This document shows, piece by piece, positions 23,481 through 39,894 of a DNA stretch of 64,000 nt. Position 1 is the first letter of the stretch, and each line of letters begins with the position of its first letter. A program made the translations under genes and the position numbers. This DNA is from a virus (lineage: Duplodnaviria > Caudoviricetes): positions 1 to 64,000 of the IMG/VR virus record IMGVR_UViG_3300028485_000001; one strand, written 5' to 3'. The notes under the pieces are model-generated. The model was not told where the DNA came from. It searched no databases and saw only the letters and a list, made by a program, of their open reading frames with translations.

Positions 23481-23527
23481 GGCACGCCGAAAAGCCCGCA
23501 CAGCGGCGGGCTGATGCGAGCGGCCAG

Positions 23528-23749: not shown

Positions 23750-23838
23750 GCGCAACAGAGTAGCGCAACGGGCTTGCGCTAGTCCATGGCGATCGCTACT
23801 GTGATGCGTAACGGAGAAGCGCAACACAGAAGCGCAAC
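23750..23838. promoter_or_regulatory. Divergent promoter with paired GCGCAAC direct repeats
   Basis: GCGCAAC at 23750/23763 and 23819/23832; TTGCGC(23774)-17 nt-TACTGT(23797). Confidence 0.75.
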
Positions 23839-23861
23839 TAGAGATCGTTCTGAGGAGCCAC

Positions 23862-24062
23862 ATGACCGACCACGAAGGATGCCGCGAGGAAGTCCGATCC
23901 GGGATGGCTGCACTGGGGATCGAGGCGACCGTCAGCACCGCTGAGCCGATCATCGTCGGCCGCTACCCCGCCCACGGCCACATCTGCCCGCACGGCACCA
24001 CCTACTGGGTCGAGCCGACCAGTGAGCAGATCGCCCAGTGGCGCCGCGACGGCGTCCGCTGA
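23862..24062 (+). CDS. Hypothetical protein
   Basis: GAGGAG RBS. Confidence 0.7.
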   Translation: MTDHEGCREEVRSGMAALGIEATVSTAEPIIVGRYPAHGHICPHGTTYWVEPTSEQIAQWRRDGVR

Positions 24063-24106
24063 CCACCCCCGCAGGGCAGCAGCCCAGCCGAACGAAGGAG
24101 ATCCGC

Positions 24107-24313
24107 ATGAGCAAGCCCGTCCGCGTCGAGCTGATCGTCGAACACGACACCGCCGACACCATCACCGACATCGTCGAGATCGACCGCGCCGAGTGGGACG
24201 AGATGACCCCCACCGAGCGCGAGAAGTGGTGCACCCAGGAAGCCGAGGAGCTGCGCGCCAACGTGTGCAGCAGCGGCTTCCAGGTCCTCGACGGCATCGA
24301 CATCGACACCTGA
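24107..24313 (+). CDS. Hypothetical protein
   Basis: GAAGGAG RBS. Confidence 0.75.
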   Translation: MSKPVRVELIVEHDTADTITDIVEIDRAEWDEMTPTEREKWCTQEAEELRANVCSSGFQVLDGIDIDT

Positions 24314-24353
24314 CCACCCAAGCAAGACAGCCCAACCGAACGAAGGAGTTCGC

Positions 24354-24635
24354 ATGGCCACCCTCACCGCCGCGCAGACCGCCGTCCTCGCCGACGTCCG
24401 CCTCCGCCTCGACGCCGCCGGGCTCACCGACCACCAGATCACCCCGCCCACCACCACCGCCCGCTGGACCGCCCACGACACCCGCTGGGGCACCACCGTC
24501 TACGAGGAGATCCCCGACCGGCCCGGTCACGCGTACTGCGTCCTCGCGGGCGACGAGCCCGTCGACGACCCCCAGCCCGAGGACGCCGCGCACATCAGCG
24601 ACCTGGAGCGGATGGGTTTCGTCCGCGCCGCCTGA
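24354..24635 (+). CDS. Hypothetical protein
   Basis: GAAGGAG RBS. Confidence 0.75.
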   Translation: MATLTAAQTAVLADVRLRLDAAGLTDHQITPPTTTARWTAHDTRWGTTVYEEIPDRPGHAYCVLAGDEPVDDPQPEDAAHISDLERMGFVRAA

Positions 24636-24720
24636 CCCCACAGCCCACGCCGCCCTACGGGGGCGCACCGGATCACGACCGGACGCGGGCACGCAGAACC
24701 ACCGACCGAAGGAGACGCGC

Positions 24721-24984
24721 ATGGACCTCCCGCACACCTACAACGACGCCGACGGCAACACCCTCAGCGTCGACGCCGAACGCATCACCCTCATCGACGC
24801 CTACCGCATGAGCGACGAGATGACCTCCCCCAAGGGCGAGGACGCTGTCGATCTCGCCGAGGCCATCCTCGCCTCCGGGGCTCCGGACCACGTCGTCATC
24901 GCCAAGGCGGACCTCGCCGACGGAATGCGCGCCGCCCTGCGAGCCAAGGCCACTCCGGCTAACGACGTCGAGGCCGCGAAGTGA
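24721..24984 (+). CDS. Hypothetical protein (paralog of 25644-26039)
   Basis: LPHTYND...G.DAVDLA.A.L. Confidence 0.75.
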   Translation: MDLPHTYNDADGNTLSVDAERITLIDAYRMSDEMTSPKGEDAVDLAEAILASGAPDHVVIAKADLADGMRAALRAKATPANDVEAAK

Positions 24985-25160
24985 AGGCCCGTCGCCTCCG
25001 CCGACGGATGACCCTCCTCGACCACGGCCACCAGTTCCGCATCACCGCAATCCGTCGGAGCTTCTGGCGTCGCACCGTGGCCGCTCGGGGGTTCTACGTC
25101 CCCTCCGGAGCGCCCGGCACCTACGTCCTCAGCCCGAAGCACGACGTGGAGACCCAATGA
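24981..25160 (+). CDS. Small basic hypothetical protein (59 aa)
   Basis: Hand-translated MKARRLRRRM...; GTGA overlap. Confidence 0.55.
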   Translation: MKARRLRRRMTLLDHGHQFRITAIRRSFWRRTVAARGFYVPSGAPGTYVLSPKHDVETQ

Positions 25161-25207
25161 ACCCCTACGAGATCCAGCCCGACCACGAAGACGCCTAGGA
25201 GGCGCAC

Positions 25208-25576
25208 ATGAGCACCACGACCACCGACACCCGCTGTTGGACCCTCAAGCACGCCAGCGGCCCCGACATCGGCGACTACTACGACGACGGCGAGGGTGCC
25301 CTCCACTTCCCCACCCCCGAGGCCGCCATCGCATGGCGCAACGACCAGGGCGACGGCGACACCGAACCCGCCCGGTTCCCGTTCATCTGCCACGCCATCA
25401 CCTGCGCCACCCCCGGGTGCGGCTACCGGCACGAGCAGGACTCCGACGACGCCACCGTCACCCACTTCCCCAGCCGGGAGGAAGGCGTGAGGTGGGCGCT
25501 GGCCACTGGCTGGGGCGCCAGCCCGAACGGCCCGATCTGTTCCGGATGCGTCGAAGACGCCCGCCCTACCCCGTGA
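25208..25576 (+). CDS. Hypothetical Cys-containing protein
   Basis: AGGAGG RBS; CxxxxC and CxxC. Confidence 0.7.
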   Translation: MSTTTTDTRCWTLKHASGPDIGDYYDDGEGALHFPTPEAAIAWRNDQGDGDTEPARFPFICHAITCATPGCGYRHEQDSDDATVTHFPSREEGVRWALATGWGASPNGPICSGCVEDARPTP

Positions 25577-25643
25577 CACAGCAGAGGACCGGGGCGTATA
25601 CGCCGCCCCGGTCCCGCACCCACCGTACCGAATGGAGACACCC

Positions 25644-26039
25644 GTGGAACTCCCGTACCGCTACACCGACGAGGACGCCGAGCTTGAAGTCTCCGCGACG
25701 GAGATCTCCCTCTACGAAGAGTCGGAACCGCGCGCATCACGGATCAACGCCCCCACCGGCCCTGACGCGGTCGACCTGGCCCGCGCGGTCCTCGACGCCG
25801 CCGGAAACACCGGGCACGAGGTCGTTGACAGCGCCGAACTGGCCGACACCGACCGCGAGCTCCGCATCGCCCGCCAGCAGGTCACCGACCTCCGCGACAA
25901 GGTGCGGGAGTTGGAGGGTGCGGTCCACGACCTCCGCGAGCGGGCCGCCGACCTGGTCGAGACCTCCGGTGACGCAACCGGCCTCGAAGCGATCGCCCAC
26001 CGCGTCCGCAACCTGCCGCTGACCACCACCAACGCCTAG
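25644..26039 (+). CDS. Hypothetical protein (paralog of 24721-24984 plus coiled coil)
   Basis: LPYRYTD...GPDAVDLARAVL. Confidence 0.75.
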   Translation: MELPYRYTDEDAELEVSATEISLYEESEPRASRINAPTGPDAVDLARAVLDAAGNTGHEVVDSAELADTDRELRIARQQVTDLRDKVRELEGAVHDLRERAADLVETSGDATGLEAIAHRVRNLPLTTTNA

Positions 26040-26048
26040 GAGACACCC

Positions 26049-26474
26049 GTGAGCACCGACCCGTTTGCCACCTGGCCCACCACCGAGGCCGGCACCGCCG
26101 ACCAGCTCGCCCGGTTCTACACCACCCGAGCGATGTGGCACTACGGCGCCGCCGAATCCAGCCACGACCGGCCCGTCCAGGAGCTCAAGGCCGCAACCGG
26201 CGCGTTCGTCGACGGACACACCATCGCGCACCTGCTGCGGGAATGGGCCAAGACCGACCCCGAGCGCGCCAACAAGGCCACCCGCGAGCTCCTGGAGGCC
26301 TACGAGCTGATGCCGGCGCCCCTGCACGACCTCCAGGAGTGGCTGACCGAGTACGGCGTCGCCCCGGACGAGGTGGTCAGCTCTGGCGTCCAGGCCGCCA
26401 AGGAGAGGCACCGCCAGGACGACGAGGCCCGCGCCGCTGCCCGCACGCCCCTCACCGCCGACACCGACGCCTAG
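26049..26474 (+). CDS. Hypothetical protein
   Basis: AGGAG RBS. Confidence 0.7.
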   Translation: MSTDPFATWPTTEAGTADQLARFYTTRAMWHYGAAESSHDRPVQELKAATGAFVDGHTIAHLLREWAKTDPERANKATRELLEAYELMPAPLHDLQEWLTEYGVAPDEVVSSGVQAAKERHRQDDEARAAARTPLTADTDA

Positions 26475-26482
26475 GAGAGAAC

Positions 26483-26809
26483 GTGAGCACCAAGACCGCC
26501 GCCACCCGCACCCTCACCGTCGCGCAGATGCGCGCCGAAGCCCGCGCCCGGTACGGCCCCGACATCCGCACCTGGGCCTACCAGTGCCCCGCCTGCGGCC
26601 ACGTCGCGACCGGCCCCGACATCGTCGAGTTCATCGCGAAGAACCCGGCGGCACTGCTCGGGGTCCACGGCACCCCCATCGACGCCGGTCAGGCCCTGGC
26701 CCAGCACTGCATCAACTGCTTCGCGGCTGCCTGCGACGCCGGAACCACCGTCGTCACCACCCCCGAAGGTCAGAACATCCGCATCTTCGAGCTGGCACCC
26801 ACCCCCTGA
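26483..26809 (+). CDS. Hypothetical zinc-finger protein
   Basis: W...CPACGHV...C..C. Confidence 0.7.
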   Translation: MSTKTAATRTLTVAQMRAEARARYGPDIRTWAYQCPACGHVATGPDIVEFIAKNPAALLGVHGTPIDAGQALAQHCINCFAAACDAGTTVVTTPEGQNIRIFELAPTP

Positions 26810-26906
26810 CCCCCAGCCCGACCGGACCCACAGGGCAGCCGGGGACCGCGAGCAGGCCGCGGACGGGCGCCAGAACAGACCAGGACGAGACCCCCCAGGA
26901 GGGCAC

Positions 26907-27725
26907 ATGGACAACGAAGACCAGGTCAGCCAGCAGATGGAACGCCTCACCGTCGCCGCACAGAACGTGATCACCCACTGGTCCGACACCCAGGTGCGCG
27001 GCCACCTCAAGGAGCACCCCGACTTCGTCGAGCACAGCCTCACGCTCATCGAGGACACGGCCCGCACCGTGCGCGCCGCCGTCAAGAAGGAGCGTCCCGA
27101 CTGCGGCAACGTCGCCAGCGGGGAGCCCGAGAAGGACTTCGACAACCAGGTCGACGCCTACCGGGCGCACACCTGCGACTGCGACTACTGCTACCAGCAG
27201 GAGGCCGAACCCGTCGCCGAGCCCATCTTCGAGTCCTTCGGTGCCCCCGCGCCGGAGTGGGAGCTTGGGCAGCCCTACGCCGGATGCAGCCGGAACGACC
27301 TCATCTACCTCCTCGGACTGGCTAAGGACGAAGCCACCGAGACCACCAACACGATCATCGCTGCCGCCGAAGCCGCCGCCAGCTCGGGCCCTGACGCCGC
27401 GGTCGCGATTATCGCCCAGTACGTCCTCGACAACGGAAACGTCCGCGAACCCACCGAAGCCACCGACGAACAGCTGGCCGCGCTGACCGCCTACCCCCAC
27501 GGCCCCGACGGGCGCTTCAAGGAAGCGCTCAACCTCTGGCGCGTGACGTGGGACTTCACCACCACCGGCTGCTCCAGCGCCCCCTCCGAGGACGATGTCA
27601 CCACAGCCTCAGAGGTCATCCGCACTTCCATCCGCGTCGGCATCGAGCAGGAGCACATCCTCCAAGCCGCACGCGACGCCGGCGAAGCCCTCCGATCCGA
27701 CATCGCCCACTTCCTGCCGAACTGA
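26907..27725 (+). CDS. Hypothetical protein
   Basis: AGGAGG RBS. Confidence 0.7.
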   Translation: MDNEDQVSQQMERLTVAAQNVITHWSDTQVRGHLKEHPDFVEHSLTLIEDTARTVRAAVKKERPDCGNVASGEPEKDFDNQVDAYRAHTCDCDYCYQQEAEPVAEPIFESFGAPAPEWELGQPYAGCSRNDLIYLLGLAKDEATETTNTIIAAAEAAASSGPDAAVAIIAQYVLDNGNVREPTEATDEQLAALTAYPHGPDGRFKEALNLWRVTWDFTTTGCSSAPSEDDVTTASEVIRTSIRVGIEQEHILQAARDAGEALRSDIAHFLPN

Positions 27726-27735
27726 AGGACCCGAA

Positions 27736-28488
27736 ATGACCAGACAGCAAATCGAAACCATGCACCAGATCAGCGACATCATGGACGCCGTCATCAACCA
27801 GATTCGCGCCCGCCAGAACCACACGCCCACCGGCGAACTCGACGGCGACATGACCATCGAAGCCCTTCCCAGCTGGTACGGCGACACCACCTTCCGCTCC
27901 AAGCTCGAAGCTGACTGGGCCGCCACCCTCGACACGTTCGGCATCGCCTGGGAGTACGAGCCCGAGACCATCACCCTCCCCTCTGGCACCGTGTACATCC
28001 CCGACTTCTGGCTGCCCCAGATCGGCACATGGCTGGAAGTCAAGGGCCCCGGCGTTCCCCGAATCGAGAAGGCCCACGAACTCGCCGCGGCCCGGGCCTG
28101 CTACTGCCAGGGGCGGTGCTCCTGCACCCATCACGGCGGCGAACTCGTCCTGATCGGACACATCCCGACCCCGCTCCAGCACCGCGACGACGACCGCTAC
28201 TGGTCGGACTACTGGGAGCGCCGCCGTCACGACAACGAGCGCAAGCGCACCCCCGGCCACCTGGCATGGACAGTCGCCCACGGACCCGAGGCGTACATGG
28301 CTACCTGCCAGCGATGCGGAGTCACCGGGTGGGCGCCGTTGCGCTATCCGGGCTGTAGGGCCTGCCGTAAGCGCTTCGACAACACCCCCGTGTACCGGTC
28401 CGGAGCGAAGGAGCTGTTCTTCGTGAACTCCGACGGACTTCCGCGACCAGAGGCGTCCGTTCCTGCTCCGGCGCCCGCCACCGCTTGA
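27736..28488 (+). CDS. PD-(D/E)XK nuclease
   Basis: FRSKLEADWA...WEYEP...YIPDFWLP....EVKG. Confidence 0.8.
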   Translation: MTRQQIETMHQISDIMDAVINQIRARQNHTPTGELDGDMTIEALPSWYGDTTFRSKLEADWAATLDTFGIAWEYEPETITLPSGTVYIPDFWLPQIGTWLEVKGPGVPRIEKAHELAAARACYCQGRCSCTHHGGELVLIGHIPTPLQHRDDDRYWSDYWERRRHDNERKRTPGHLAWTVAHGPEAYMATCQRCGVTGWAPLRYPGCRACRKRFDNTPVYRSGAKELFFVNSDGLPRPEASVPAPAPATA

Positions 28489-28520
28489 CCCACCAACGAC
28501 CACTACCAACCGGGGGAGCC

Positions 28521-29543
28521 ATGGGGGTGCGCCTGATGGTCGAGATCTACGACCACTGGAGCGACTTCGGGCTGACGTCCGGCGAACGCAGCGACCTGCT
28601 CGTCATCGCCGAGAACGCCAACGACAAGACCCGAGAGACGTTCGGCAGCATCCACGCGCCGTACATCCTCCACCGCGCCGGCGACAAGTCTCCGGCCGCG
28701 TGGAAGAACACCATCGGCAAGCTCATGAAGAAGGCGGCACTGGAGTACGCGGTCGAGGGTGGCAGGGAGGTTCGCGGTCACCCCGGCCAGACAGCCCGCT
28801 ACCGGATCCCGCACCTGTGCCCGCTGCGTGATCACGACGGCTTGTGGGGTCAGTGCAAGCGGACCGAAGAATGGGTCACCCCTCAGGTGACCCATTCGGA
28901 CCTAGGTAGTGATCGGACCGACGGAATGGGTCACTTCCCAGATGACCCATCCGACGGAATGGGTCACCTGACAGATGCGGAATGGGTCACCTCTCAGGTG
29001 ACCCCTACCCCTCCTACCCCTCTTACTACTTCCGCCGAAGCGGAAGCAGGGGACGCCGGGACTCTCTTCGACGTCGACAAGCCCAAGCCGAAACCGAAGA
29101 AGGCGCCCAAGCCCCCGACGTCCGCTCAGATCGAAGCCCGCAAGATCGCCAGCGGCTACATGAAGAAGTACGGCAACGGCTCCAGCCAGACCGAGACGGC
29201 CGTCCGCAAGATCGTCGAGACAACCATCAACAACGGAACCGACCGCGACACCGTCGCCTGGTCCGTGGACGCCATTGGGCGCACCGGAAAGTCCATCACC
29301 TCCTGGCGACTCACCGACACCATCGCCGACGTCCGCGCCCGCCGCGGTGACACCCCCGGCTCCATGGCGTCCCGCCGGACCGCCGCTGAGTGCTCGGAGC
29401 ACTCCATGCCACTGGCGTGCTCCGCGTGCCTGGGCGACATCCGCGCCGGCGACGACGAGGTGCCCCGCCGCCTCCTTTCCACCTATGGCTCCGAGGTCCG
29501 CTGGGACCTCGCCGAACGACTCAACAAGGGAGAAGCCGCCTGA
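28521..29543 (+). CDS. Putative replication initiator
   Basis: Directly upstream of DnaB; internal iteron repeats. Confidence 0.7.
   Translation: MGVRLMVEIYDHWSDFGLTSGERSDLLVIAENANDKTRETFGSIHAPYILHRAGDKSPAAWKNTIGKLMKKAALEYAVEGGREVRGHPGQTARYRIPHLCPLRDHDGLWGQCKRTEEWVTPQVTHSDLGSDRTDGMGHFPDDPSDGMGHLTDAEWVTSQVTPTPPTPLTTSAEAEAGDAGTLFDVDKPKPKPKKAPKPPTSAQIEARKIASGYMKKYGNGSSQTETAVRKIVETTINNGTDRDTVAWSVDAIGRTGKSITSWRLTDTIADVRARRGDTPGSMASRRTAAECSEHSMPLACSACLGDIRAGDDEVPRRLLSTYGSEVRWDLAERLNKGEAA
28869..29005. repeat. Four GAATGGGTCAC iteron units (putative origin)
   Basis: Starts at 28869, 28924, 28957 and 28980; the first is a perfect 12-bp palindrome. Confidence 0.85.
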
Positions 29544-30907
29544 TGACGGTTCACGACATCACCCCCCGCATTCCGCAGGACGACTCGACTCCGCCGCACG
29601 ACGTCGGTGCCGAGCAGATCGTCCTCGGCGCGGCCATCCTCGACTCCCGGGTCCTGCGGGACCTGGGCGACCTGATCACCCCGATGGACCTGTACCGACC
29701 CGCGCACCAGGTCATCTTGGAGACCGTCATGGGCATGGCGGACCTGGGTTTGCCGATCGAGCCGGTGGCGGTGCACCGGGAGCTGGTGAAGCGCAAGCAG
29801 GCCACCGCGGTCGGCGGCGCACCGTACCTGTACGAGCTTGTGGACAAGGTCCCGACGGTACAGAACGCGACCTGGTACGCGAAGGTCGTCGCGGACCTGT
29901 CGTTCCAGAGGCGCCTGATCGAGGCGGGCACGCGGATCGCTCAGATCGGCTGGGAGGGCGAGGGCGAGCCGACCGTCCTTGCAGAGGTCGCCGACGAGGC
30001 TCTGCGGTCTGCGGTTGCCGCCGGCGCGACGGGGGAGCCGGACACACAGCTCCTCGGAGACGACGCGGAGTTCATCGACGCGCTGGAGAAGCCGCTGTCG
30101 ACGGAGAACATGGTGCCCGCTCCCTATGTCGACCTTGGCGAGCGGATCGGCGGAGGGTTCAAGCCGGGGCAGCTGATCTGCATCGCCGGTCGGACCGGTG
30201 GCGGCAAGTCCGTGGTGGGTCTGGACATCGCCCGACACGCGGGGATCCGCCATCGGATGCCAACCCTGTACATCAGCCTGGAGATGCCCGCTGACCAGAT
30301 CCGGGAGCGCATCTACGCCGCCGAGGCGAAGGTCCCGGGGAAGCGCATCACCGACCACGAGCTCACGGACGAGGACTGGTCGAAGATCGCAAAGGTGCGG
30401 CCCGCGATCAACGCCGCGCCGATCTGGGTGGCTGCGCCGGCGCAGTGCACGCTCAACATGGTCAGGCAGCGCCTTCAGGCGATGGAGCGCAAGGGCCACA
30501 AGCCGCGGCTCCTGGTGGTCGACCACGTGGGCCTGATGTCCTCGACCGGGAAGAACGAGTCCCGCTACACCGAGGTCAGTGCCTACGCCCGCGGGTTGAA
30601 GCTGATCGCGATGGAGTTCAAGATCCCCGTGGTCATGCTCTGCCAGGTGAACAGGTCGGTGGGCCAGCGCCCGGACGCGATCCCGCGGGTGTCGGACCTG
30701 CGCGACTCCGGCGAGCTGGAGCAGTCCTCCGACCTGGTGGCGATGGTGCACCTGCCGGACTACGACGTGAAGGACAAGGCCGAGGGGCACGAACGCGCCG
30801 GCGAGGTCGACCTGTACCTCGCGAAGAACCGCAGTGGTCCGACCGCTGTCGTGACGCTGTCGGCTCAGTTGCACTACTCGCGCTTCGCCGACATGGCGCA
30901 GGGGTGA
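29543..30907 (+). CDS. dnaB: DnaB-like replicative helicase
   Basis: AGRTGGGKS, SLEM, VVDH, Q..R, LRDSGELEQ..D and AKNRSGP. Confidence 0.95.
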   Translation: MTVHDITPRIPQDDSTPPHDVGAEQIVLGAAILDSRVLRDLGDLITPMDLYRPAHQVILETVMGMADLGLPIEPVAVHRELVKRKQATAVGGAPYLYELVDKVPTVQNATWYAKVVADLSFQRRLIEAGTRIAQIGWEGEGEPTVLAEVADEALRSAVAAGATGEPDTQLLGDDAEFIDALEKPLSTENMVPAPYVDLGERIGGGFKPGQLICIAGRTGGGKSVVGLDIARHAGIRHRMPTLYISLEMPADQIRERIYAAEAKVPGKRITDHELTDEDWSKIAKVRPAINAAPIWVAAPAQCTLNMVRQRLQAMERKGHKPRLLVVDHVGLMSSTGKNESRYTEVSAYARGLKLIAMEFKIPVVMLCQVNRSVGQRPDAIPRVSDLRDSGELEQSSDLVAMVHLPDYDVKDKAEGHERAGEVDLYLAKNRSGPTAVVTLSAQLHYSRFADMAQG

Positions 30908-32022
30908 TGGGGATGCCCCTGACGATCGGCTCCCTCTGCTCTGGCTATGAGGGCCTGGGCATGTCTGTCCAGTCCGTCCTCGACGCCGAACTCGCGTGGG
31001 TCGCGGACCCCGATCCGGGCGCGGCGAAGATCCTCGCCCACCACCACCCCGACGTGCCCAACCTCGGCGACATCACTCAGACCGACTGGTCGACCGTGCC
31101 CCCCGTCGACATCTTGACCGCCGGGTTCCCGTGCCAGGACATCAGCAACGCCGGCAAGCGCGCCGGGATCGAAGGAGAACGAAGTGGGATCTGGTCGAAC
31201 GTCGCCGACGCCATTCGCGTACTACGACCCCGAGTCGTCTTCCTGGAGAACGTCTCAGCCGTCGTTGTTCGGGGGCTCGACCGAGTTGTCTCCGACCTGG
31301 CCGCGGTCGGGTATGACGCGAGCTGGATGTGCCTACGAGCTTCCGACGTCGGCGCTCCGCACCGTCGAGAGCGCTGGTTCTGCGTCGCCTGGCCTGCCGA
31401 CGCCGCGGGCCCGCGACTCGAAGGGGCGGGGGTTCTCGGACGGGTTGCCGAACGTCGTGGAGGACTTGCTGCCGACGCCGACCACCTCGGAGGCCACTGG
31501 GGCGGGGGCGCCGGATGGGAACCGCAACGACACGCTGCGGGCGCGGGTGCGGCTCTTGCCCACGCCGACGGCGACGCCCTACGGCAACAACCAGTCGCCG
31601 TCGGCGGGCGCGGCGGTGCGTCCGTCACTGAACTCCCTGGCAGCGGATGGGGCACTCTTGCCGACCCCACGGGCGTCGGACACGGGCACCCCCGGCCGCC
31701 GGGCCTCGGAGGGGTTCCGGCCGCCACTGTCGGAAGTGATCTTGCGTGGGGCGCGTACTCAGGGGCGATCCGCCGCTGGGAGCACGTCACCGGACGTCCT
31801 GCCCCTGTTCCCACTGAGCCCGGACGAAACGGACAGCCCCGCCTGAGCCCCGTCTTCGTCGAGTGGTTGATGGGTCTGCCCTTGGGATGGGTGACGGCGC
31901 CGGAGATCGGGCTCACCCGAACCCGGCAGCTTCACGCCTTGGGCAACGGCGTGGTCCCGCAGCAGGGGTCTCACGCTCTCCGTCTCCTCCTGGAGCGCGT
32001 GACCGCCGACGTGGCCGCATAG
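30907..32022 (+). CDS. DNA cytosine-5 methyltransferase
   Basis: LCSGYEG, GFPCQD, ENV, HRRERWF, EWLMGLP and GNGV. Confidence 0.92.
   Translation: MGMPLTIGSLCSGYEGLGMSVQSVLDAELAWVADPDPGAAKILAHHHPDVPNLGDITQTDWSTVPPVDILTAGFPCQDISNAGKRAGIEGERSGIWSNVADAIRVLRPRVVFLENVSAVVVRGLDRVVSDLAAVGYDASWMCLRASDVGAPHRRERWFCVAWPADAAGPRLEGAGVLGRVAERRGGLAADADHLGGHWGGGAGWEPQRHAAGAGAALAHADGDALRQQPVAVGGRGGASVTELPGSGWGTLADPTGVGHGHPRPPGLGGVPAATVGSDLAWGAYSGAIRRWEHVTGRPAPVPTEPGRNGQPRLSPVFVEWLMGLPLGWVTAPEIGLTRTRQLHALGNGVVPQQGSHALRLLLERVTADVAA
31184..31846 (+). CDS. Nested alternative-frame ORF inside the methyltransferase with four LPTP repeats
   Basis: AGGAG at 31173-31177 before GTG; YDPESSSWRTSQ...WPRSGM; LPTP-x-A-x-D-like repeats. 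Confidence 0.65.
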   Translation: MGSGRTSPTPFAYYDPESSSWRTSQPSLFGGSTELSPTWPRSGMTRAGCAYELPTSALRTVESAGSASPGLPTPRARDSKGRGFSDGLPNVVEDLLPTPTTSEATGAGAPDGNRNDTLRARVRLLPTPTATPYGNNQSPSAGAAVRPSLNSLAADGALLPTPRASDTGTPGRRASEGFRPPLSEVILRGARTQGRSAAGSTSPDVLPLFPLSPDETDSPA

Positions 32023-32026
32023 GTGC

Positions 32027-32053
32027 GCCCCGCCAGCTGGTATCTGGCGGGGC
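32027..32053 (+). terminator. Hairpin after the methyltransferase
   Basis: GCCCCGCCAG-N7-CTGGCGGGGC. Confidence 0.65.
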
Positions 32054-32176
32054 ACGCCCCCGATCCTCTCATGCGCCCGCACAGCGCACGCTGACGCCCG
32101 TACAGGACTGTCAGCACCCCGAGTCACACTCAAGTTTCCTGAGCGCCTGACGCTCACTACAGCCCCGGGAGGGGAC

Positions 32177-32515
32177 ATGTCCGACACCGACCTCCTACGA
32201 GAAGCCGCCGCGAGAGTGCGCGAGACCGCCACCGCTGCCGCTCCCGGCCCGTGGCACATGGACGAGGGCCAGCGCATCTATGCCGAGGATGGCGCCTACG
32301 TCACGTCGCCGTGGACGAACGACGAGCGAGACGACGACCTCGACCACATCGCCCTGTGGCACCCCGGGGTTGCGCTCGCCGTCGCCGACCTGCTCGACAG
32401 CGAAGCCACCCACCACGTCGACGACCCCTCGTTCGAGCGCGACACCGACCCGCTGTGCGACACGTGGCCGCACGCGGTCCGGATCGCCCGCGCCCTGGTC
32501 GGGGAGGGGGAGTGA
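32177..32515 (+). CDS. Hypothetical protein
   Basis: GGAGG RBS; TPGPW-like and HIA.W.P patterns of small phage proteins. Confidence 0.75.
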   Translation: MSDTDLLREAAARVRETATAAAPGPWHMDEGQRIYAEDGAYVTSPWTNDERDDDLDHIALWHPGVALAVADLLDSEATHHVDDPSFERDTDPLCDTWPHAVRIARALVGEGE

Positions 32516-32709
32516 AGGCCTCCGTCATCCGCCACGGCGGCCACACCCACCGGCTCGCCCCCGCCAAAGAAGACCCCGACCGCGGATACGCGACCCGGCG
32601 CACCCGCACCCTCTGCCGTATCCCGCTCGACGACACCATGCCGCCGTCGCCCGCAGGCACAGCCGTGACCTGCCCGCGATGCAAGCGGCTCAGCCCGAAG
32701 GAGAACTGA
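32512..32709 (+). CDS. Small zinc-binding protein
   Basis: H...TLC...VTCPRC. Confidence 0.65.
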   Translation: MKASVIRHGGHTHRLAPAKEDPDRGYATRRTRTLCRIPLDDTMPPSPAGTAVTCPRCKRLSPKEN

Positions 32710-33146
32710 TGGACCTGCAAGAGGCGACCCAGCTCGCCGCCCAAGCCCACGCCGGACAGGTTGACAAAGCCGGACGCCCCTACAGCGAGCACGTGTTCGC
32801 GGTTCGCGACCTGCTCGCACCCCACGGTCCGCACGCCCAGATGGCCGGGGTCCTGCACGACACCCTCGAAGACACCGACCTCACCGCCGACGACCTGCGC
32901 GCCCACGGATGCCCCGAAGAGGTAATCCGCGCCGTGGAAGCCGTCACCAAGCAGGCGGGGGAGACCTACGAGGACGCCGTGCACCGAGCGGCGGCCGACC
33001 CGCTGGGGCGGCTGGTGAAGCTTGCCGACAACGCCCACAACTCCGACGAGGGCCGACTCGCTCTGCTCCCGATGGAGAAGGCGGACCGGCTGCGAGTCAA
33101 GTACGCGCGGGCACGCATCCTGCTCAACGCCACCCAGGAGTCCTGA
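32709..33146 (+). CDS. HD-domain protein, RelA/SpoT hydrolase (Mesh1/SAH)-like
   Basis: AH.GQ.DKAG.PY..H, LHDTLEDT and VKLAD..HN. Confidence 0.85.
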   Translation: MDLQEATQLAAQAHAGQVDKAGRPYSEHVFAVRDLLAPHGPHAQMAGVLHDTLEDTDLTADDLRAHGCPEEVIRAVEAVTKQAGETYEDAVHRAAADPLGRLVKLADNAHNSDEGRLALLPMEKADRLRVKYARARILLNATQES

Positions 33147-33147
33147 C

Positions 33148-33300
33148 ATGGCACTGCCGCCCGTCCCGAATGCCTGCATCGCCTGCGGTGTGAGCGCATG
33201 GCATCACGCCTCAGCAGGCCACGCCTACCAAGCGCCAACCCCAGGCGAGCGATCCGCCCGGATGGACTCCTGGATCAACCTCAACTCGAAGGAGAACTGA
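33148..33300 (+). CDS. Small hypothetical protein
   Basis: AGGAG RBS; CIACG..H. Confidence 0.55.
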   Translation: MALPPVPNACIACGVSAWHHASAGHAYQAPTPGERSARMDSWINLNSKEN

Positions 33301-33301
33301 C

Positions 33302-33838
33302 ATGGCCAAGCTCGTGTTCCTCGACACCGAAACCACCGGCCTCAACCCCGAACTCCACGATGTGTGGGAGATCGCCGTCATCACCAACGACGGCGAGGAA
33401 CACCGCTGGACCGTTCGCCCCGATCTCACCCACGCCGACCCGAACGCGCTGAAGATCGGCGGGTACTACGAGCGGGCGCGACTCAACTCCCTCGGGCCTG
33501 ATGCCGAGAACGTCGCTGGGCAGCTCGCCCGCCTCCTCGACAGCGCGACGGTCGTCGGTTCCAACCCCTCGTTCGATCAGGCGTTCCTCACCCGGTGGCT
33601 GCGCAAGTACGGCCAGTGCTGGACGGCGCACTACCGCACCGTCGACATCGTCACGCTCGGGCACGGCTACCTGGTGGGGTGCGAGCCCGGGTACAGCCCC
33701 GCCGAGCACATGCCTCCGGCCACGCACGACGTCTGCCGCGCTTTCGGTATCGACCCGGGCGGCTACGACCGGCACACCGCCCTCGGGGACGCGCGCATGG
33801 TCCGCGACCTGTACACCGCCATCACCAAGGAGTCCTGA
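33302..33838 (+). CDS. DnaQ-like DEDDh 3'-5' exonuclease
   Basis: FLDTETTG, N..FD..FL and HTALGDA. Confidence 0.9.
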   Translation: MAKLVFLDTETTGLNPELHDVWEIAVITNDGEEHRWTVRPDLTHADPNALKIGGYYERARLNSLGPDAENVAGQLARLLDSATVVGSNPSFDQAFLTRWLRKYGQCWTAHYRTVDIVTLGHGYLVGCEPGYSPAEHMPPATHDVCRAFGIDPGGYDRHTALGDARMVRDLYTAITKES

Positions 33839-34026
33839 TGGCCGCTGCCGTCCGTGTCCTAGCCGCTCTTGCTTTCGCCGGGATCGCCCTGGCCGTCGTC
33901 GGGGCGATCCACTCGGTCATCGGCGGGACGTGGTCGCTGCTCCTGTGGCAGCTCATCGCTGCCTTGTGGCCCGTGTCCGTCCTGATCTTCGTCCACCGCA
34001 TGCACCAGAACACCAAGGAGAACTGA
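33838..34026 (+). CDS. Small membrane protein
   Basis: Two TM helices. Confidence 0.65.
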   Translation: MAAAVRVLAALAFAGIALAVVGAIHSVIGGTWSLLLWQLIAALWPVSVLIFVHRMHQNTKEN

Positions 34027-34027
34027 C

Positions 34028-34177
34028 ATGGCCCTGCCCAGCATCACCGTGACCGCGCGTCTCGTCGACGTCCCTGAGATCAAGTGGAGCCAGTCCGGGA
34101 CTGCCGTGGCGAAGTTGCGCCTCGTGTCGAACGAGCGCCGCCTCAACAAGCAGACCAACGAGTGGGGCGGGAGCTAG
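34028..34177 (+). pseudogene. ssb: Truncated SSB (49 aa N-terminal fragment)
   Basis: MALPSITVTARLVDVPEIKWSQSGTAVAKLRLVSNERR...NEW then a premature stop. Confidence 0.8.
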
Positions 34178-34326
34178 GAGCGGCCAGGAATCTCCAAGTC
34201 CAAGGCGGTTTCGAGCAGGTGGACGATCTCGGAGTTGAGCGACCGTCGGTCCTCCTTGGCCCGGTCGGTGAGCCGGTCGTGGAGGTCTTCGGGCAGGCGG
34301 AGAGTGATTCGCGTTGCGGATTCCAT
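34174..34326 (-). CDS. Arc-family ribbon-helix-helix protein (50 aa)
   Basis: Hand-translated RITLRLPEDLHDRL...RRSLNSEIVHLL; TACCAT-N6-ATG. Confidence 0.85.
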   Translation of the reverse strand: MESATRITLRLPEDLHDRLTDRAKEDRRSLNSEIVHLLETALDLEIPGRS

Positions 34327-34327
34327 G

Positions 34328-34378
34328 CCACCATGGTAACGCCCCCATGGTGGTATAGTGGTGTCATCGTGACACCAC
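34328..34378. promoter_or_regulatory. Two 9-bp inverted repeats and a TATAGT -10 between Arc and HNH
   Basis: CCACCATGG-N8-CCATGGTGG (34328-34353); GTGGTGTCA-TCG-TGACACCAC (34358-34378). Confidence 0.75.
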
Positions 34379-34392
34379 TCGGGGGGCGAACT

Positions 34393-34974
34393 ATGGCAAA
34401 CGAGGACCCGTGCTTAGTCGAGGGGTGCGAACGATCGCCCGAGAAGCGTGGCTGGTGCAACAGGCACTACAAACGCTGGCGACGGTGGGGTGACCCTCTC
34501 GGCAGTTTCCAGCCCAAGCCAGTCGAAGAACGCTTTTGGGCCAAGGTCAACAAGAACGGCGCCATGCCCGCTCAGGGCATCGCACCAGGGGCCTGCTGGG
34601 AGTGGACCGGAGCGATCACTTCTTGGGGGTACGGCCAGTTTCGCCCGGATTACCCCGACTACAAGGTCTGTTCTGTAGTGCACCGCTACTCCTACGAGCT
34701 TCATGTCGGCCCCATCCCTAACGGCTTCCAGGTCGATCACCTGTGCCGAAACCGGAAGTGCGTCAACCCGAGTCACCTGGAAGCCGTTACGCAACTGGAG
34801 AACATCCGTCGGGGTTTCAGCCAGGCCACCATCAATCGGCTCAGGACTCACTGCCCTAAGAGGCACCCATATTCCGCAGCGAACACCTACATTGCGCCCA
34901 AGGGCGGTCGGTACTGCCGGGAGTGCGCGCGTCAGCGATCCAGATTTGCCCATCAAAAGAGGAAGTCAGCATGA
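34393..34974 (+). CDS. HNH homing endonuclease (zinc-binding)
   Basis: CWEWTG..GYGQF, HR.SYE, VDHLCRNRKCVNPSHLE, N..RG and THC..H...R.CREC. Confidence 0.92.
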   Translation: MANEDPCLVEGCERSPEKRGWCNRHYKRWRRWGDPLGSFQPKPVEERFWAKVNKNGAMPAQGIAPGACWEWTGAITSWGYGQFRPDYPDYKVCSVVHRYSYELHVGPIPNGFQVDHLCRNRKCVNPSHLEAVTQLENIRRGFSQATINRLRTHCPKRHPYSAANTYIAPKGGRYCRECARQRSRFAHQKRKSA

Positions 34975-35462
34975 CCCTGCCCACCGTGACCCACACCTAC
35001 CGTCTCGCCGCCGACCCCGAGGTCAAGTTCCTCGACGATGGCAAGCCCATGGTTCGCCTGAGGCTGGCAGCGAACGCGAACCGTAAGAACGACGCTGGCC
35101 AGTGGGAGAAGACCGACGAGCTGTTCATCACCACGACTGCGTTCGGTGACCAGGCTCAGGCCATCGCTGACGCGAATCTGTCGGTGGGGCAGGAGGTGAT
35201 CGTGTCGGGTCGTCTGCGTACCCGGTCGTGGGAGCAGGACGGGCAGAAGCGGTCTGCGATCGAGATGCGGTTGGACGCGATCGGCCCGAAGATCAGCGTT
35301 CCCCGCCAGCAGCAGGGCGGCGTGGGCGGCGGTTTCGGCGGCGGTCAGTCGCAGCGGTCCTACGGCCAGCAGGGCGGCGGGTTCTCCGGCGGGCAGCAGC
35401 AGGGCGACCCGTGGGGGCAGAGCGGACAGTCCGGGTTCAACGAAGACCAGCCGCCGTTCTAG
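34971..35462 (+). CDS. ssb: Single-stranded DNA-binding protein
   Basis: OB fold (RL.ADPE...G..V.V.GRL..RSWE); Gly/Gln tail ending DQPPF. Confidence 0.92.
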   Translation: MTLPTVTHTYRLAADPEVKFLDDGKPMVRLRLAANANRKNDAGQWEKTDELFITTTAFGDQAQAIADANLSVGQEVIVSGRLRTRSWEQDGQKRSAIEMRLDAIGPKISVPRQQQGGVGGGFGGGQSQRSYGQQGGGFSGGQQQGDPWGQSGQSGFNEDQPPF

Positions 35463-35471
35463 GAGGTCATC

Positions 35472-35846
35472 ATGCCCATCCGCCCCGAGAACAAGCACAG
35501 GTACCCCAAGAACTGGCCGGACATCTCCCACCGAATCCGCTTCGACCGCGCACAGGGCCGCTGCGAGTGCACCGGCCAGTGCGGGCGCGGCACCCACGAG
35601 GGGCGCTGCCCCAACCGACACGGGGGCGACGCTTATGGCACCGGCTCCAAGGTCGTGCTCACCACGATGCACCTGGACCACACCCCGGAGAACTGCGACG
35701 ACAGCAATCTCCTCGCGGGCTGCCAGGGCTGCCACCTGCACTACGACAAGGACCACCACGCACAGACCGCGCGGGCCACTCGCGAAGCGGCGCGGCTCGC
35801 CGCTGGGGAAGTACCACTGTTCGAGCTGGACGAAGCGATCCCATGA
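35472..35846 (+). CDS. HNH-like zinc-binding phage protein
   Basis: YP.NW..IS..IR...RCE...VLT..HLDH.PENC...NL...CQ.CHL.YD. Confidence 0.75.
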   Translation: MPIRPENKHRYPKNWPDISHRIRFDRAQGRCECTGQCGRGTHEGRCPNRHGGDAYGTGSKVVLTTMHLDHTPENCDDSNLLAGCQGCHLHYDKDHHAQTARATREAARLAAGEVPLFELDEAIP

Positions 35847-36058
35847 CCGCGCTTCGTGGTTTGGACGGAGTGGGTCGGATGTACGCGGTCGTGTGCGCCA
35901 TGTGCGGCACAGACCACCGTCCCCGGCTCACCCCGCGCACCGCATCGGACGCCCGCCATCTGGCCCGGAAGGACGGGTGGCGGGCACCCACCAGCAAGGC
36001 CAAGCGAGGCCGGGGCGATCTGTGCCCCGACTGCCGGACGAAGGAGAACCATGTCTAA
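35843..36058 (+). CDS. Small zinc-finger protein
   Basis: C..C...GW...DLCPDC. Confidence 0.65.
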   Translation: MTALRGLDGVGRMYAVVCAMCGTDHRPRLTPRTASDARHLARKDGWRAPTSKAKRGRGDLCPDCRTKENHV

Positions 36059-36386
36059 CCAGCGGGCCTATGAGGCCGTGTACGCGTACATCGACAGCAT
36101 CGGCATCGCCCTACCCACGGACGCCGCCCGCCGCAACGCCATGATCTGGACGGCCGTGCAAGCAGCCCTCGAAGCAGACGAGCAGACCGAAGCGGTGAAC
36201 ACCGTGGCGCGCATTCGGCAGATCCACCAGCCCGACCCGAACCCACGCAGCGGATGGAACGCCGACGACAGTGCCCCTTCCGAATACGGCACCATCGAAC
36301 GCGCCTGCCGCGAGTGCGGGGCTACCGACATGGCGGTGCCGTGGCCCTGCCCGACCCTGCGCGCGCTGGGAGGCGACGATGCCTGA
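36051..36386 (+). CDS. Hypothetical protein
   Basis: C..C...WPCPT. Confidence 0.7.
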   Translation: MSNQRAYEAVYAYIDSIGIALPTDAARRNAMIWTAVQAALEADEQTEAVNTVARIRQIHQPDPNPRSGWNADDSAPSEYGTIERACRECGATDMAVPWPCPTLRALGGDDA

Positions 36387-36972
36387 CACCCTGACCCGCC
36401 TCGCGGACGCCCTGCACGCTGAGCTGTGCCGACAGCACGACGTGCAGCCCGAGGGGCACAGCCTCACCGGGGACTACGCGGCGCTGGGAGATGATGCGGC
36501 CAAGCTCGCGGAGATAGCGCAGCCGTACCTCGACGCCGCATGGGAAGCAGGCCGCAAGCACGGGCTACGGCAGGCGCGGAAGCCCCACGACGGGCGGGTG
36601 AAGCAGCTCGAAGAGGAGATCGAGGGCGCGCTCGCGCTGGAGGAAGCCACCGGGCGTGCGTGGGCGCTCCAGTGTCTCCGAGTGCGGGACCTCGAAGAAC
36701 AGGTCCGAGACCTCGAAGCAGAGGTGGAGCGACTGCAACTCGAAGCCAAGGGTGCCGACTGCGCGCGGGAGCTCGCGCAGCAGCGGGAGCAGGATGCGCG
36801 GTGGCTGCTCGATCGCGCCACCGAGTTCGTCGTCCACGGCCCGCGCGGACCGGTTGTCGTGCGATGCGGCGAGTTCTCCAACTGGACCACGGCGAGTCAC
36901 CAGAGCGGCCGGGAGGAGCATCCCGACCGTGCCGCGGCCCTGGCGCGGGCGCGGGAGATCGCGGGGGAGTGA
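36379..36972 (+). CDS. Hypothetical coiled-coil protein
   Basis: GGAGG RBS. Confidence 0.7.
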   Translation: MPDTLTRLADALHAELCRQHDVQPEGHSLTGDYAALGDDAAKLAEIAQPYLDAAWEAGRKHGLRQARKPHDGRVKQLEEEIEGALALEEATGRAWALQCLRVRDLEEQVRDLEAEVERLQLEAKGADCARELAQQREQDARWLLDRATEFVVHGPRGPVVVRCGEFSNWTTASHQSGREEHPDRAAALARAREIAGE

Positions 36973-37015
36973 CGAAGGGCGGCCCGCTCCCGCCCCTCCC
37001 ACGAGAAGATGAGAC

Positions 37016-37681
37016 ATGGAAACTCACCAACTTGTGATATCCGGCATTCAGATCGCCGTGACCATCGTCGCCCTGTTCGCCCCTTGGATTGCGGCTCGTG
37101 CCGTCTACAAGAAGCTGGAGCCAGAGCTTCGGCTTCTTCATCTGCAAGGCGAGCAGCTTGAGGCAGAGGAGCGAGAGCGCAGAAAGACGAAGACTCTTGG
37201 GGTCACTGCTCACATCTGGCAGATGCCCTACGACACAGGCTGTGACAGCTATAACACGGCGGACCAGTACTTCCGAATCATGATGAGTGAACTGCTTCCC
37301 CAGTGCGATCATGCCGAGAAAGCTTTAGTGGTGGAGGTTCGCAACACAGGGGAAGCGCCGGTCGCTCAAGTTCTTGTCAGCGCTGGCTCACGGAACGCGG
37401 AGTCCTCCTTGCGCGGGCCTGACTACGATGAACTGCGGAACTCAGCTTGCGACCCTCGTGTTTCTGACGTCAGAATTCCTCCCCTTGGCAAGGTCGCTTT
37501 TGCCTTCGAGAGTCTCGAAGCACACCGTGATGCGGAGCAAGTAGCAGTCCACTTCACCGACGAAAGCGGCTACAGGTGGACCAAGGATCTTCACGGAGTA
37601 GTGGCTCAAGAACACAGCACGGCGGCTGAACGTTCGCCGTGGCACAAGCGAATGATTCCCCGTGTGACATGGGATCGGTGA
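37016..37681 (+). CDS. Membrane-anchored accessory protein with atypical (lower-GC) codon usage
   Basis: N-terminal TM helix; many A/T third positions. Confidence 0.7.
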   Translation: METHQLVISGIQIAVTIVALFAPWIAARAVYKKLEPELRLLHLQGEQLEAEERERRKTKTLGVTAHIWQMPYDTGCDSYNTADQYFRIMMSELLPQCDHAEKALVVEVRNTGEAPVAQVLVSAGSRNAESSLRGPDYDELRNSACDPRVSDVRIPPLGKVAFAFESLEAHRDAEQVAVHFTDESGYRWTKDLHGVVAQEHSTAAERSPWHKRMIPRVTWDR

Positions 37682-37744
37682 TGTGCTTCCGTCATGAGAC
37701 CTGGTCGAACAGGGGTACCATCCCCGAAAGCCAAGGGAGGGCTC

Positions 37745-37855
37745 GTGATCATCGCTCTACGCATCCTCGGCACCGAGGTGTTCGGGTTCTCCGACGGTTC
37801 GCACACTCACCTGGAGACCGACTACCGGGACACCAGCGAGGAAGTCCAGGTGTGA
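37745..37855 (+). CDS. Small ORF (36 aa)
   Basis: AGGGAGG RBS; overlaps next gene. Confidence 0.45.
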   Translation: MIIALRILGTEVFGFSDGSHTHLETDYRDTSEEVQV

Positions 37856-39881: not shown

Positions 39882-39894
39882 GGGCATGACGAAT

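What the first reader, a model, noticed from the sequence alone, without database searches (positions are those of the whole stretch)
30907..32022. C5 methyltransferase with a nested second ORF spanning its variable region
Seen: the main frame has the catalytic motifs plus IX/X-like ends, but its variable region is low-information. An overlapping 220-aa ORF (31184-31846) has AGGAG 6 nt before its GTG, hidden in the GIEGERS codons. It carries an ordered N-terminus (YDPESSSWRTSQ..WPRSGM) and four repeats: LPTPRARD, LLPTPTTSE, LLPTPTATP and LLPTPRASD. Established: M.EcoHK31I uses a second subunit encoded in an alternative frame. Inference: the nested protein is a subunit supplying modular target recognition. 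Together with the intein, this is a second dual-coding locus in one genome.
Basis: partly seen in the sequence, partly recalled or inferred. Interest (0 to 1): 0.75.

Follow-up and report, generated by a model that had tools for sequence, protein, structure and literature searches.

The report
Methyltransferase gene with nested recognition subunit
This phage cytosine-methyltransferase gene is read in two frames: one gives the catalytic protein, and a nested +1 frame gives the DNA-recognition part as what looks like a separate subunit, a layout shared by thousands of actinobacterial phage genes and, as far as I could find, undescribed.

Summary
ORF 30907-32022 (alpha, 371 aa) carries C5-methyltransferase motifs I-VIII and IX-X. 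Between them lie about 115 codons with no protein signal. The nested +1 ORF 31184-31846 (beta, 220 aa) has AAGGAG 6 nt before its GTG.

- Beta is a real coding frame. It matches PHROG 1008 and over 5,000 protein clusters. Its N-terminal 50 residues are homologous to the segment that follows motif VIII in single-frame relatives. GC3 and substitution patterns switch to this frame.
- In 36 of 38 related loci the recognition part starts in the +1 frame, never +2, on top of motifs VI-VIII. Synonymous sites of alpha are fixed there by beta's residues.
- Frame 0 has no stop across the recognition region in 22 window-type loci, where about 28 are expected. Alpha is therefore translated through it.
- Beta starts are built from rare alpha codons in three different ways.
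- The point of return to frame 0 changed repeatedly among close relatives.

Best reading (about 0.7): a two-chain enzyme, alpha catalytic and beta the recognition domain with four shuffled LPTP cassettes. This resembles M.EcoHK31I in gene layout, with the roles reversed. Binding and activity are untested, because the complex predictor was unavailable. Other first-stage readers of this scan noted the same pattern on other genomes.

The parts
30907..32022 (+). alpha ORF (frame 0, 371 aa): C5 DNA methyltransferase with motifs I-VIII, a low-information linker, then motifs IX-X. Its ATG overlaps the stop of the upstream DnaB-like gene (GTGATG).
30907..31401 (+). alpha N-terminal catalytic part, aa 1-165: motif I 30934-30960, PCQ 31123-31140, ENV 31246-31254, GYDASW 31309-31326, motif VIII 31357-31374
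   Evidence: Pfam PF00145 aa 6-162, E 7.8e-36; motif coordinates; frame-0 GC3 0.87-0.97 up to about 31175
31172..31177 (+). Shine-Dalgarno-like AAGGAG, 6 nt upstream of the beta start, built from rare frame-0 codons (GAA GGA GAA CGA AGT)
31184..31846 (+). beta ORF (+1 frame, 220 aa, GTG start, TGA stop): N-terminal 'WPxSGM' subdomain followed by four LPTP cassettes
31184..31417 (+). dual-coding stretch: the same bases encode alpha motifs V/VI-VIII (frame 0) and the beta N-terminal subdomain up to the first LPTP (+1)
   Evidence: mixed GC3; fixed synonymous sites in relatives, GCC 30/30, GGG 29/29, GAT 18/28; frame-0 third-position substitution rate 0.257 falling to 0.170; hhalign prob 88-95% to the post-motif-VIII segment of single-frame enzymes
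31394..31745 (+). beta cassette array: units starting at 31394 (LPTPRARD), 31466 (LLPTPTTSE), 31553 (LLPTPTATP) and 31655 (LLPTPRASD)
   Evidence: +1-frame GC3 0.80-1.00; unit families shuffled among relatives
31402..31740 (+). alpha linker: frame-0 reading of the cassette array (Arg/Gly/Ala/Pro-rich, no family match), kept free of stop codons
31741..32019 (+). alpha C-terminal part: WGAYSGAIRRWE 31747-31782, motif IX 31840-31890, motif X 31939-31965
   Evidence: PHROG 1008 profile positions 217-325 match alpha aa 267-369; frame-0 GC3 recovers to 0.77-0.87

Best explanation
The locus encodes a two-chain C5 DNA methyltransferase from one stretch of DNA.

- Alpha (frame 0) carries all ten catalytic motifs. 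In place of the variable region it has a long, unconstrained, probably disordered linker.
- Beta (+1 frame) starts at its own ribosome-binding site inside alpha. It is the variable or small-domain part: a beta-hairpin subdomain that normally follows motif VIII, then four short LPTP cassettes.
- The two chains are inferred to assemble so that beta sits between alpha's large domain and its motif IX and reads the DNA target.
- The cassette array is inferred to set the target or targets, possibly several.

Shown: both frames are coding, each is under its own selection, beta is homologous to the variable region, and beta start sites are conserved.

Inferred: separate translation of beta, assembly of the chains, the need for both chains, and the role of the cassettes in specificity.
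For: 1. Beta is homologous to real methyltransferase sequence.
- PHROG 1008 profile positions 64-204 match beta, and positions 217-325 match the alpha C-terminus.
- hhalign places beta aa 7-56 uniquely on residues 174-223 of a single-frame relative, directly after motif VIII (score 41, prob 88-95%). Twenty column-shuffled controls score 9.8 or less.
- In the AlphaFold model of that relative this segment is confident (block-mean pLDDT 79-98). The whole model aligns to M.HhaI (Z 24.7, 258 residues).

2. Coding signals.
- GC3 switches from frame 0 to +1 at about 31180-31400 and back at about 31800.
- Substitutions between close relatives in the cassette region fall 89/57/333 on +1 codon positions 1/2/3.

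3. Overlap.
- In the 36 loci where the two frames overlap, the offset is +1 and never +2.
- Frame-0 synonymous sites are fixed to what beta needs: Ala GCC 30/30, Gly GGG 29/29, Asp GAT 18/28. In the non-overlapping part of alpha these codons make up about 19% of conserved Gly (GGG) and 6% of conserved Asp (GAT) codons.

4. Beta starts.
- Three recurrent ribosome-binding-site and start designs are made of rare frame-0 codons: AAAGGAA..GATG, GGTGATCGAGAATG within ENV, and AGGGGG..AGTG. The window has AAGGAG, 6 nt, then GTG.
- In the profile search the domain begins at residue 1-8 of nearly all of the best 150 predicted proteins.

5. Alpha is read through.
- Frame 0 is open from motif VIII to motif IX in all 33 loci of the window's layout or the partial layout.
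- There are 0 stops in 22 window-type loci. Synonymous resampling expects 28. The third frame has 1-5 stops in each locus.
- The same test on ordinary genes of this window gives 57 observed against 60 expected.

6. Precedent.
- M.AquI and M.EcoHK31I are natural two-chain C5 enzymes. Splits early in the variable region of M.SssI complement each other (PMC3404938, PMC2836561).

7. The return point is labile.
- The point of return to frame 0 differs between well-supported sister lineages.
- One deletion fuses beta to motifs IX-X in L015. This only makes sense if the chains work together.
Against: - There is no direct evidence that beta is made. No sequencing run could be listed, and no proteomic data were available.
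- There is no test of binding, because the complex predictor was unavailable.
- Beta alone folds poorly (pLDDT 62, pTM 0.30), and the LPTP cassettes are low-confidence even in the single-chain relative. Their structure and role are unknown.
- For this window alone, openness of frame 0 is not significant (P about 0.31). The case rests on the family.
- Simple amino-acid identity in the overlap is mostly higher in frame 0 than in +1. Part of the +1 conservation there is a by-product of alpha's motifs.
- A 115-residue junk linker inside an enzyme is unusual.
Confidence: 0.7

Rival explanations
1. One polypeptide is made by two programmed ribosomal frameshifts: +1 after motif VIII near 31390, and -1 before WGAYSG near 31745. 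This would rebuild the canonical order I-VIII, recognition region, IX-X.
For: Joining the frames at these points gives a sequence colinear with single-frame relatives such as L008 and L012. Relatives with only one frame change exist.
Against: - There is no XXXYYYZ heptamer and no homopolymer at either junction.
- The junction sequences and positions differ among relatives.
- +1 conservation, start codons and ribosome-binding sites extend about 70 codons upstream of the first junction.
- Frame 0 is kept open for 90-250 codons, which frameshifting would not need.
- Two shifts in series would be inefficient.
- The frameshifting review PMC5009743 mentions no DNA methyltransferase case.
Confidence: 0.1
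2. The gene is a decaying pseudogene, or an assembly error, with two compensating indels. The open frames are a by-product of high G+C.
For: High-GC DNA gives long shadow ORFs. For this window alone an open frame 0 has P about 0.31.
Against: - The same layout occurs in dozens of independent assemblies, including finished phage genomes.
- The +1 frame is under purifying selection.
- There are 0 stops where 28 are expected in frame 0.
- Beta start sites are conserved.
Confidence: 0.04
3. Beta is made, but the alpha C-terminal part (IX-X) is supplied some other way. It could be a third polypeptide started internally, or a -1 shift could fuse beta to IX-X. The frame-0 linker would then not be part of a working protein.
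For: In some relatives IX-X is in beta's frame. The linker has no conserved sequence.
Against: - Selection against stops in the frame-0 linker is expected only if ribosomes must read through it.
- I saw no in-frame start with a ribosome-binding site in the sequence before 31747 (by eye).
- There is no slippery site.
Confidence: 0.08
4. Only the cassette part of the +1 frame is functional. The conserved beta N-terminus over motifs VI-VIII is a passive shadow of alpha.
For: - Frame-0 identity exceeds +1 identity over motifs VII-VIII.
- In single-frame genes the +1 reading of motifs VII-VIII still gives a weak match to the beta profile (8 bits).
Against: - hhalign shows homology of this very segment to an in-frame, well-folded segment of single-frame enzymes.
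- Frame-0 synonymous sites are fixed for beta residues, and rare codons are used.
- In relatives that carry an insertion between motifs VI and VII, +1 is the better conserved frame (0.58 against 0.38).
- Start codons lie 33-42 codons upstream of WPxSG.
Confidence: 0.08

Closest known systems
M.EcoHK31I (E. coli HK31; two-chain C5 methyltransferase)
   Same: [quoted passage not shown]
   Different: There alpha holds motifs I-VIII, X and the recognition domain, and beta supplies only motif IX. Here alpha holds all ten motifs and beta supplies the whole variable region. No sequence relationship was tested. The requirement for both chains is not shown here.
M.AquI (two-chain C5 methyltransferase)
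   Same: The split lies in the variable region after motif VIII (PMC3404938). Relatives of this locus, such as Arthrobacter phage Andrew gp43/gp44, Gordonia phage Upyo gp54/gp53 and L015, have that division: alpha holds I-VIII, beta the rest.
   Different: In the window motifs IX-X are back in alpha's frame, so beta is nested rather than downstream. In this family the overlap is about 200 nt of doubly conserved coding sequence.
Multispecific C5 methyltransferases of Bacillus phages (SPR, phi3T, rho11s)
   Same: Both have a tandem array of short recognition modules between motifs VIII and IX in a phage enzyme. This description of the Bacillus phage enzymes is from my own knowledge; I read no paper on them here. 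The LPTP units here are likewise tandem, and they occur in many orders and numbers.
   Different: Those are single polypeptides with modules of about 40-50 aa and proven separate targets. Here the units are 25-35 aa, lie on a separate nested chain, are modelled as disordered, and have no known target.
Single-frame actinobacterial C5 methyltransferases (L008, L012, L023 and more than 1,000 database relatives)
   Same: They have the same domain order and the same post-motif-VIII subdomain, LPTP cassettes and C-terminus.
   Different: Everything is in one frame with no overlap. They form a separate clade (100/100) from all overlapped forms.

Membership tests
C5 DNA methyltransferase (Pfam PF00145) | Catalytic motifs I, IV (PCQ), VI (ENV), VIII, IX and X in one protein | tested here: met
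   Pfam E 7.8e-36 over aa 6-162. PHROG 363 and 116 match over aa 3-367.
C5 DNA methyltransferase (Pfam PF00145) | Variable or target-recognition region between motifs VIII and IX on the same polypeptide | tested here: not met
   Frame 0 at 31402-31740 has no family match and no coding signal. The homologous sequence lies in the +1 frame.
M.EcoHK31I-type nested heterodimer | Second chain encoded wholly within the first gene in another frame | tested here: met
   31184-31846 lies inside 30907-32022 at +1.
M.EcoHK31I-type nested heterodimer | Beta supplies motif IX; alpha holds the recognition domain | tested here: not met
   Motif IX (31840-31890) is in alpha. Beta is the variable region.
M.EcoHK31I-type nested heterodimer | Both polypeptides are required for methylation | not testable with these tools
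   The complex predictor was unavailable. This needs an expression assay.
M.AquI-type split enzyme | Alpha holds motifs I-VIII; beta holds the distal variable region plus IX-X | tested here: not met
   In the window IX-X are in alpha's frame. The feature is met in relatives L002, L003 and L015.
Multispecific phage C5 methyltransferase | Several tandem recognition modules, each giving its own target | tested here: inconclusive
   The window has four tandem LPTP units, and relatives have 2-7 units in many orders. No target data exist, and the units are low-confidence in models.
Programmed ribosomal frameshift gene | Slippery site at a conserved junction | tested here: not met
   No heptamer or homopolymer at either junction. 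Junctions vary among relatives.
PHROG 1008 (phage 'DNA methyltransferase') | Profile match | tested here: met
   Beta aa 2-130 match profile positions 64-204, E 2.8e-26. Alpha aa 267-369 match positions 217-325, E 1.3e-38.

The most novel reading that the evidence does not exclude
A very large clade of actinobacterial phage and prophage C5 methyltransferases is obligately two-chain.

- A +1 nested chain carries a shuffled array of short recognition cassettes, which could make the enzyme multispecific.
- Its first subdomain is co-encoded with catalytic motifs VI-VIII on the same bases, an overlap that arose once.
- Single indels or deletions then move cassettes, and even motifs IX-X, from one chain to the other without loss of function.
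- This would give phages a fast way to re-tool anti-restriction methylation.
Probability: 0.45. Interest if true: 0.85.

Novelty: new variant of a known kind. Interest (0 to 1): 0.72.

Why it matters
- It would add a third, and by far the most widespread, natural class of two-chain C5 methyltransferases.
- It is an unusually clear case of long-term dual coding in which both frames encode conserved protein structure.
- These genes are annotated inconsistently. They appear as one gene, as two 'DNA methylase' genes, or as the nested ORF alone called a hypothetical protein. Specificity predictions and methyltransferase catalogues for actinophages are therefore probably wrong for thousands of entries.
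- The cassette array offers a testable model for how phages diversify protection against host restriction.
- The family is a natural system for studying how overlapping genes arise and how domains move between subunits by frame changes.

Tried and rejected
No binding test was made.
- The look-up of sequencing runs on 30907-32022 listed no run. No RNA holder was listed.
- Megablast of window 22000-42000 against the phage collection found no match.
A single-protein query was used instead.
- Neither beta nor its alignment has a Pfam family or a solved-structure sequence match at E<=1.
- Overall entropy of synonymous sites did not differ between the overlap and the rest of alpha (0.543 against 0.541). 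The signal lies in which base is fixed, not in how variable the sites are.
- Sliding-window identity by frame did not by itself separate the +1 frame from the +2 control over most of the overlap.
- I looked for a trace of a duplication origin in single-frame genes, by searching the -1 frame of their subdomain against motifs VI-VIII. Nothing was found.
- Literature searches found no description of this layout in actinophages. The original M.AquI and M.EcoHK31I papers are not held.
- The Atlas look-up of the window's own beta failed. Homologue P0007 returned only unnamed virus and Actinomycetota clusters.
Full report
**What is there**

The window is part of an 85,359-bp virus record. Directly after a DnaB-like helicase gene, an ORF runs from ATG 30907 to TAG 32022. 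I call it alpha; it is 371 aa long.

- Its first 165 residues carry C5 methyltransferase motifs I, IV (PCQ), VI (ENV) and VIII. Its last 90 carry motifs IX and X.
- Pfam PF00145 matches aa 6-162 only (E 7.8e-36).
- About 115 codons in the middle (31402-31740) are Arg/Gly/Ala/Pro-rich and match nothing.

A 220-codon ORF in the +1 frame, 31184-31846, lies wholly inside alpha. I call it beta.

- AAGGAG sits 6 nt before its GTG. It is formed by the rare frame-0 codons GAA GGA GAA CGA AGT.

**The +1 frame is real protein sequence**

- PHROG 1008 ('DNA methyltransferase') matches beta aa 2-130 on profile positions 64-204. It matches alpha aa 267-369 on positions 217-325. One family profile is thus split over two frames.
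- tblastn of beta finds 199 phage records from Mycobacterium, Gordonia, Arthrobacter and Streptomyces hosts.
- The word-indexed search finds 2,252 proteins, none with a Pfam domain and many named 'hypothetical protein'.
- A profile of the first 80 residues finds 12,635 clusters at 50% identity, 5,138 of them at E<=1e-10. The domain begins at residue 1-8 in nearly all of the best 150.
- Within the window, GC3 is 0.87-0.97 in frame 0 up to about 31175. It is mixed from 31177 to 31400. It is 0.80-1.00 in the +1 frame from 31402 to about 31700, and then returns to frame 0.
- Between close relatives, substitutions in the cassette region fall 89/57/333 on +1 codon positions 1/2/3. The +1 frame is under purifying selection, and frame 0 is not constrained at the amino-acid level.

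**Layouts in relatives**

I mapped four query pieces on 43 loci. The pieces were the N-terminal catalytic part, the beta N-terminus, the cassettes and the C-terminus. The loci came from phage records, viral contigs and actinobacterial genomes.

- 24 loci have the window's layout: frame 0, then +1, then back to 0 after the last cassette.
- 9 loci return to frame 0 after the first one or two cassettes (for example DillTech15 gp66).
- 3 loci never return. Beta then carries motifs IX-X, and two 'DNA methylase' genes are annotated in Andrew and Upyo.
- 2 classified loci (L008, L012), plus L023, have everything in one frame.
- In the 36 overlapped loci, the recognition part begins in the +1 frame on top of motifs VI-VIII, with an overlap of 110-230 nt. 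It is never +2.

In a tree of the catalytic part:
- The single-frame genes form one clade (100/100) and all overlapped genes form the other (100/100).
- Inside the overlapped clade the three layouts are interspersed. Well-supported sister pairs of different layout include L034/L017, L018/L042, and L015 against L011/L014/L016.
- In L015 a deletion joins a beta cassette directly to the tail of alpha's last cassette. This moves motifs IX-X onto beta.

**What beta corresponds to**

- In the single-frame enzymes, motif VIII is followed by a segment of the form W..Q..LFG....WP.aG....G..W..P, and then by LPTP units.
- hhalign places beta aa 7-56 on residues 174-223 of L008 and nowhere else (score 41, prob 88-95%). 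Twenty column-shuffled controls score 9.8 or less.
- In the AlphaFold model of L008 (108-sequence alignment, pLDDT 80.6), this segment forms two beta-hairpins with block-mean pLDDT 79-98. The LPTP units are below 50.
- The L008 model aligns to M.HhaI with Z 24.7, rmsd 3.0 and 258 residues.
- Beta is therefore the start of the variable or small domain plus the cassette array.
- Beta folded alone is poor (pLDDT 62, pTM 0.30), though the same four short strands appear.

**Dual coding in the overlap**

- The conserved alpha string D-L-A-x-L-G-Y/F-D-A-x-W and the conserved beta string T-W/L-P-x-S-G-M/S are the same bases.
- In 30 non-redundant relatives the alpha Ala codon is GCC 30/30, which gives beta Pro. 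The Gly codon is GGG 29/29, which gives beta Gly.
- The Leu before them ends in G or T and never C. Asp is GAT 18/28.
- Conserved Gly and Asp codons in the non-overlapping part of alpha are GGG in about 19% and GAT in about 6% of cases.
- Codons ending in A (CTA, CGA, GTA) are common in the overlap.
- Between close pairs, the frame-0 third-position substitution rate falls from 0.257 upstream to 0.170 in the overlap.
- In relatives with an insertion between motifs VI and VII, the +1 frame is the better conserved one (0.58 against 0.38). Over motifs VII-VIII frame 0 is. The two frames share out the constraint.
- A caveat: part of the +1 conservation is a shadow of alpha's motifs. The +1 reading of motifs VII-VIII in single-frame genes still gives a weak match to the beta profile (8 bits).

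**Beta has its own starts**

Upstream of WPxSG every beta frame has a start 33-42 codons away. There are three recurrent designs, each made of rare alpha codons:
- AAA GGA A..GAT G, which gives AAAGGAA and then ATG.
- GTG GTG ATC GAG AAT GT, where ENV is written with AAT. This gives GGTGATC, which by my own knowledge is complementary to the 16S rRNA 3' end, and then ATG.
- AGG GGG ... AGT G, which gives AGGGGG and then GTG.

The window uses AAGGAG, 6 nt, then GTG.

**Alpha is read through the linker**

- Frame 0 is open from motif VIII to motif IX in 33 of 33 loci of the first two layouts, over 35-249 codons.
- I resampled synonymous codons while keeping each beta protein. This predicts 28 stops in 22 window-type loci; none is seen. 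The third frame has 1-5 stops in each.
- The same test on ten ordinary genes of this window gives 57 observed against 60 expected.
- For the window alone, P(open) is 0.31. The argument is therefore a family argument.

**Mechanism**

The best reading is a two-chain enzyme.

- Alpha supplies the large domain and motifs IX-X, tied together by a disordered linker.
- Beta is started internally and supplies the variable region.
- The split point, right after motif VIII, is where natural (M.AquI) and artificial (M.SssI) splits of C5 enzymes work (PMC3404938).
- M.EcoHK31I is the precedent for a nested beta (PMC2836561), but there beta gives motif IX only.
- The LPTP units resemble the T-L/TLTA core of recognition domains. 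That resemblance is from my own knowledge and is an inference.
- The units occur in about 75 different orders among 85 beta proteins.
- A multispecific enzyme is possible but untested.

**Rivals**

- Double frameshifting lacks slippery sites and conserved junctions. It explains neither the upstream +1 conservation nor the open frame 0.
- Pseudogene or sequencing error is excluded by the breadth of the layout and by the selection signals.
- A third polypeptide, or a fusion of beta to IX-X by a -1 shift, is not excluded. It does not predict the lack of stops in the linker.

**Known or new**

- I found no paper describing this layout.
- Database annotation is inconsistent. Darolandstone and DillTech15 have one gene. 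Andrew and Upyo have two. In a syntenic metagenome contig the gene caller called beta and not alpha.
- Other first-stage readers of this scan noted the same pattern on two other genomes. Those notes are unchecked and did not change my reading.

**Verdict**

This is a new variant of the known two-chain C5 methyltransferases. Expression, binding and specificity still have to be shown.

Noticed in passing
window 29389-30904: The DnaB-like gene has only 1 stop in its -1 frame, where synonymous resampling expects 6.9. That frame holds the long ORFs 29275-30294 and 30445-32022. This may be chance or another constrained frame.
   Followed up: no
window 30904-30909: The alpha ATG overlaps the stop of the upstream helicase gene (GTGATG). 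This suggests translational coupling.
   Followed up: no
L045:2188-3357: In a syntenic metagenome contig (DnaB, then the methyltransferase) the gene caller called the nested beta ORF plus two small spurious genes, and did not call alpha at all. This shows how unevenly these loci are annotated.
   Followed up: partly
L015:2650-3130 compared with L011 and L014: A deletion joins a beta cassette (..GRRASE) to the tail of alpha's last cassette (DLMLPAAVQ..), putting motifs IX-X on beta. In the same locus alpha's motif VIII region has changed from RERVFI to RERVSM, so the locus may be decaying.
   Followed up: partly
L024:2429-3472: Cassette-like +1 matches lie both upstream and downstream of a partial catalytic match, and no C-terminal match was found. 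This is an odd or rearranged copy.
   Followed up: no
L008 protein residues 240-350 (model mcc82fb46ed81): The LPTP cassette array of a single-chain relative is modelled with pLDDT below 50, although the alignment holds 108 sequences. The cassettes may fold only on DNA.
   Followed up: no
window 32280-33146: The downstream ORF contains a string that looks like an HD-domain phosphohydrolase (..LHDTLEDT..), by eye only. It was not checked with a family search.
   Followed up: no
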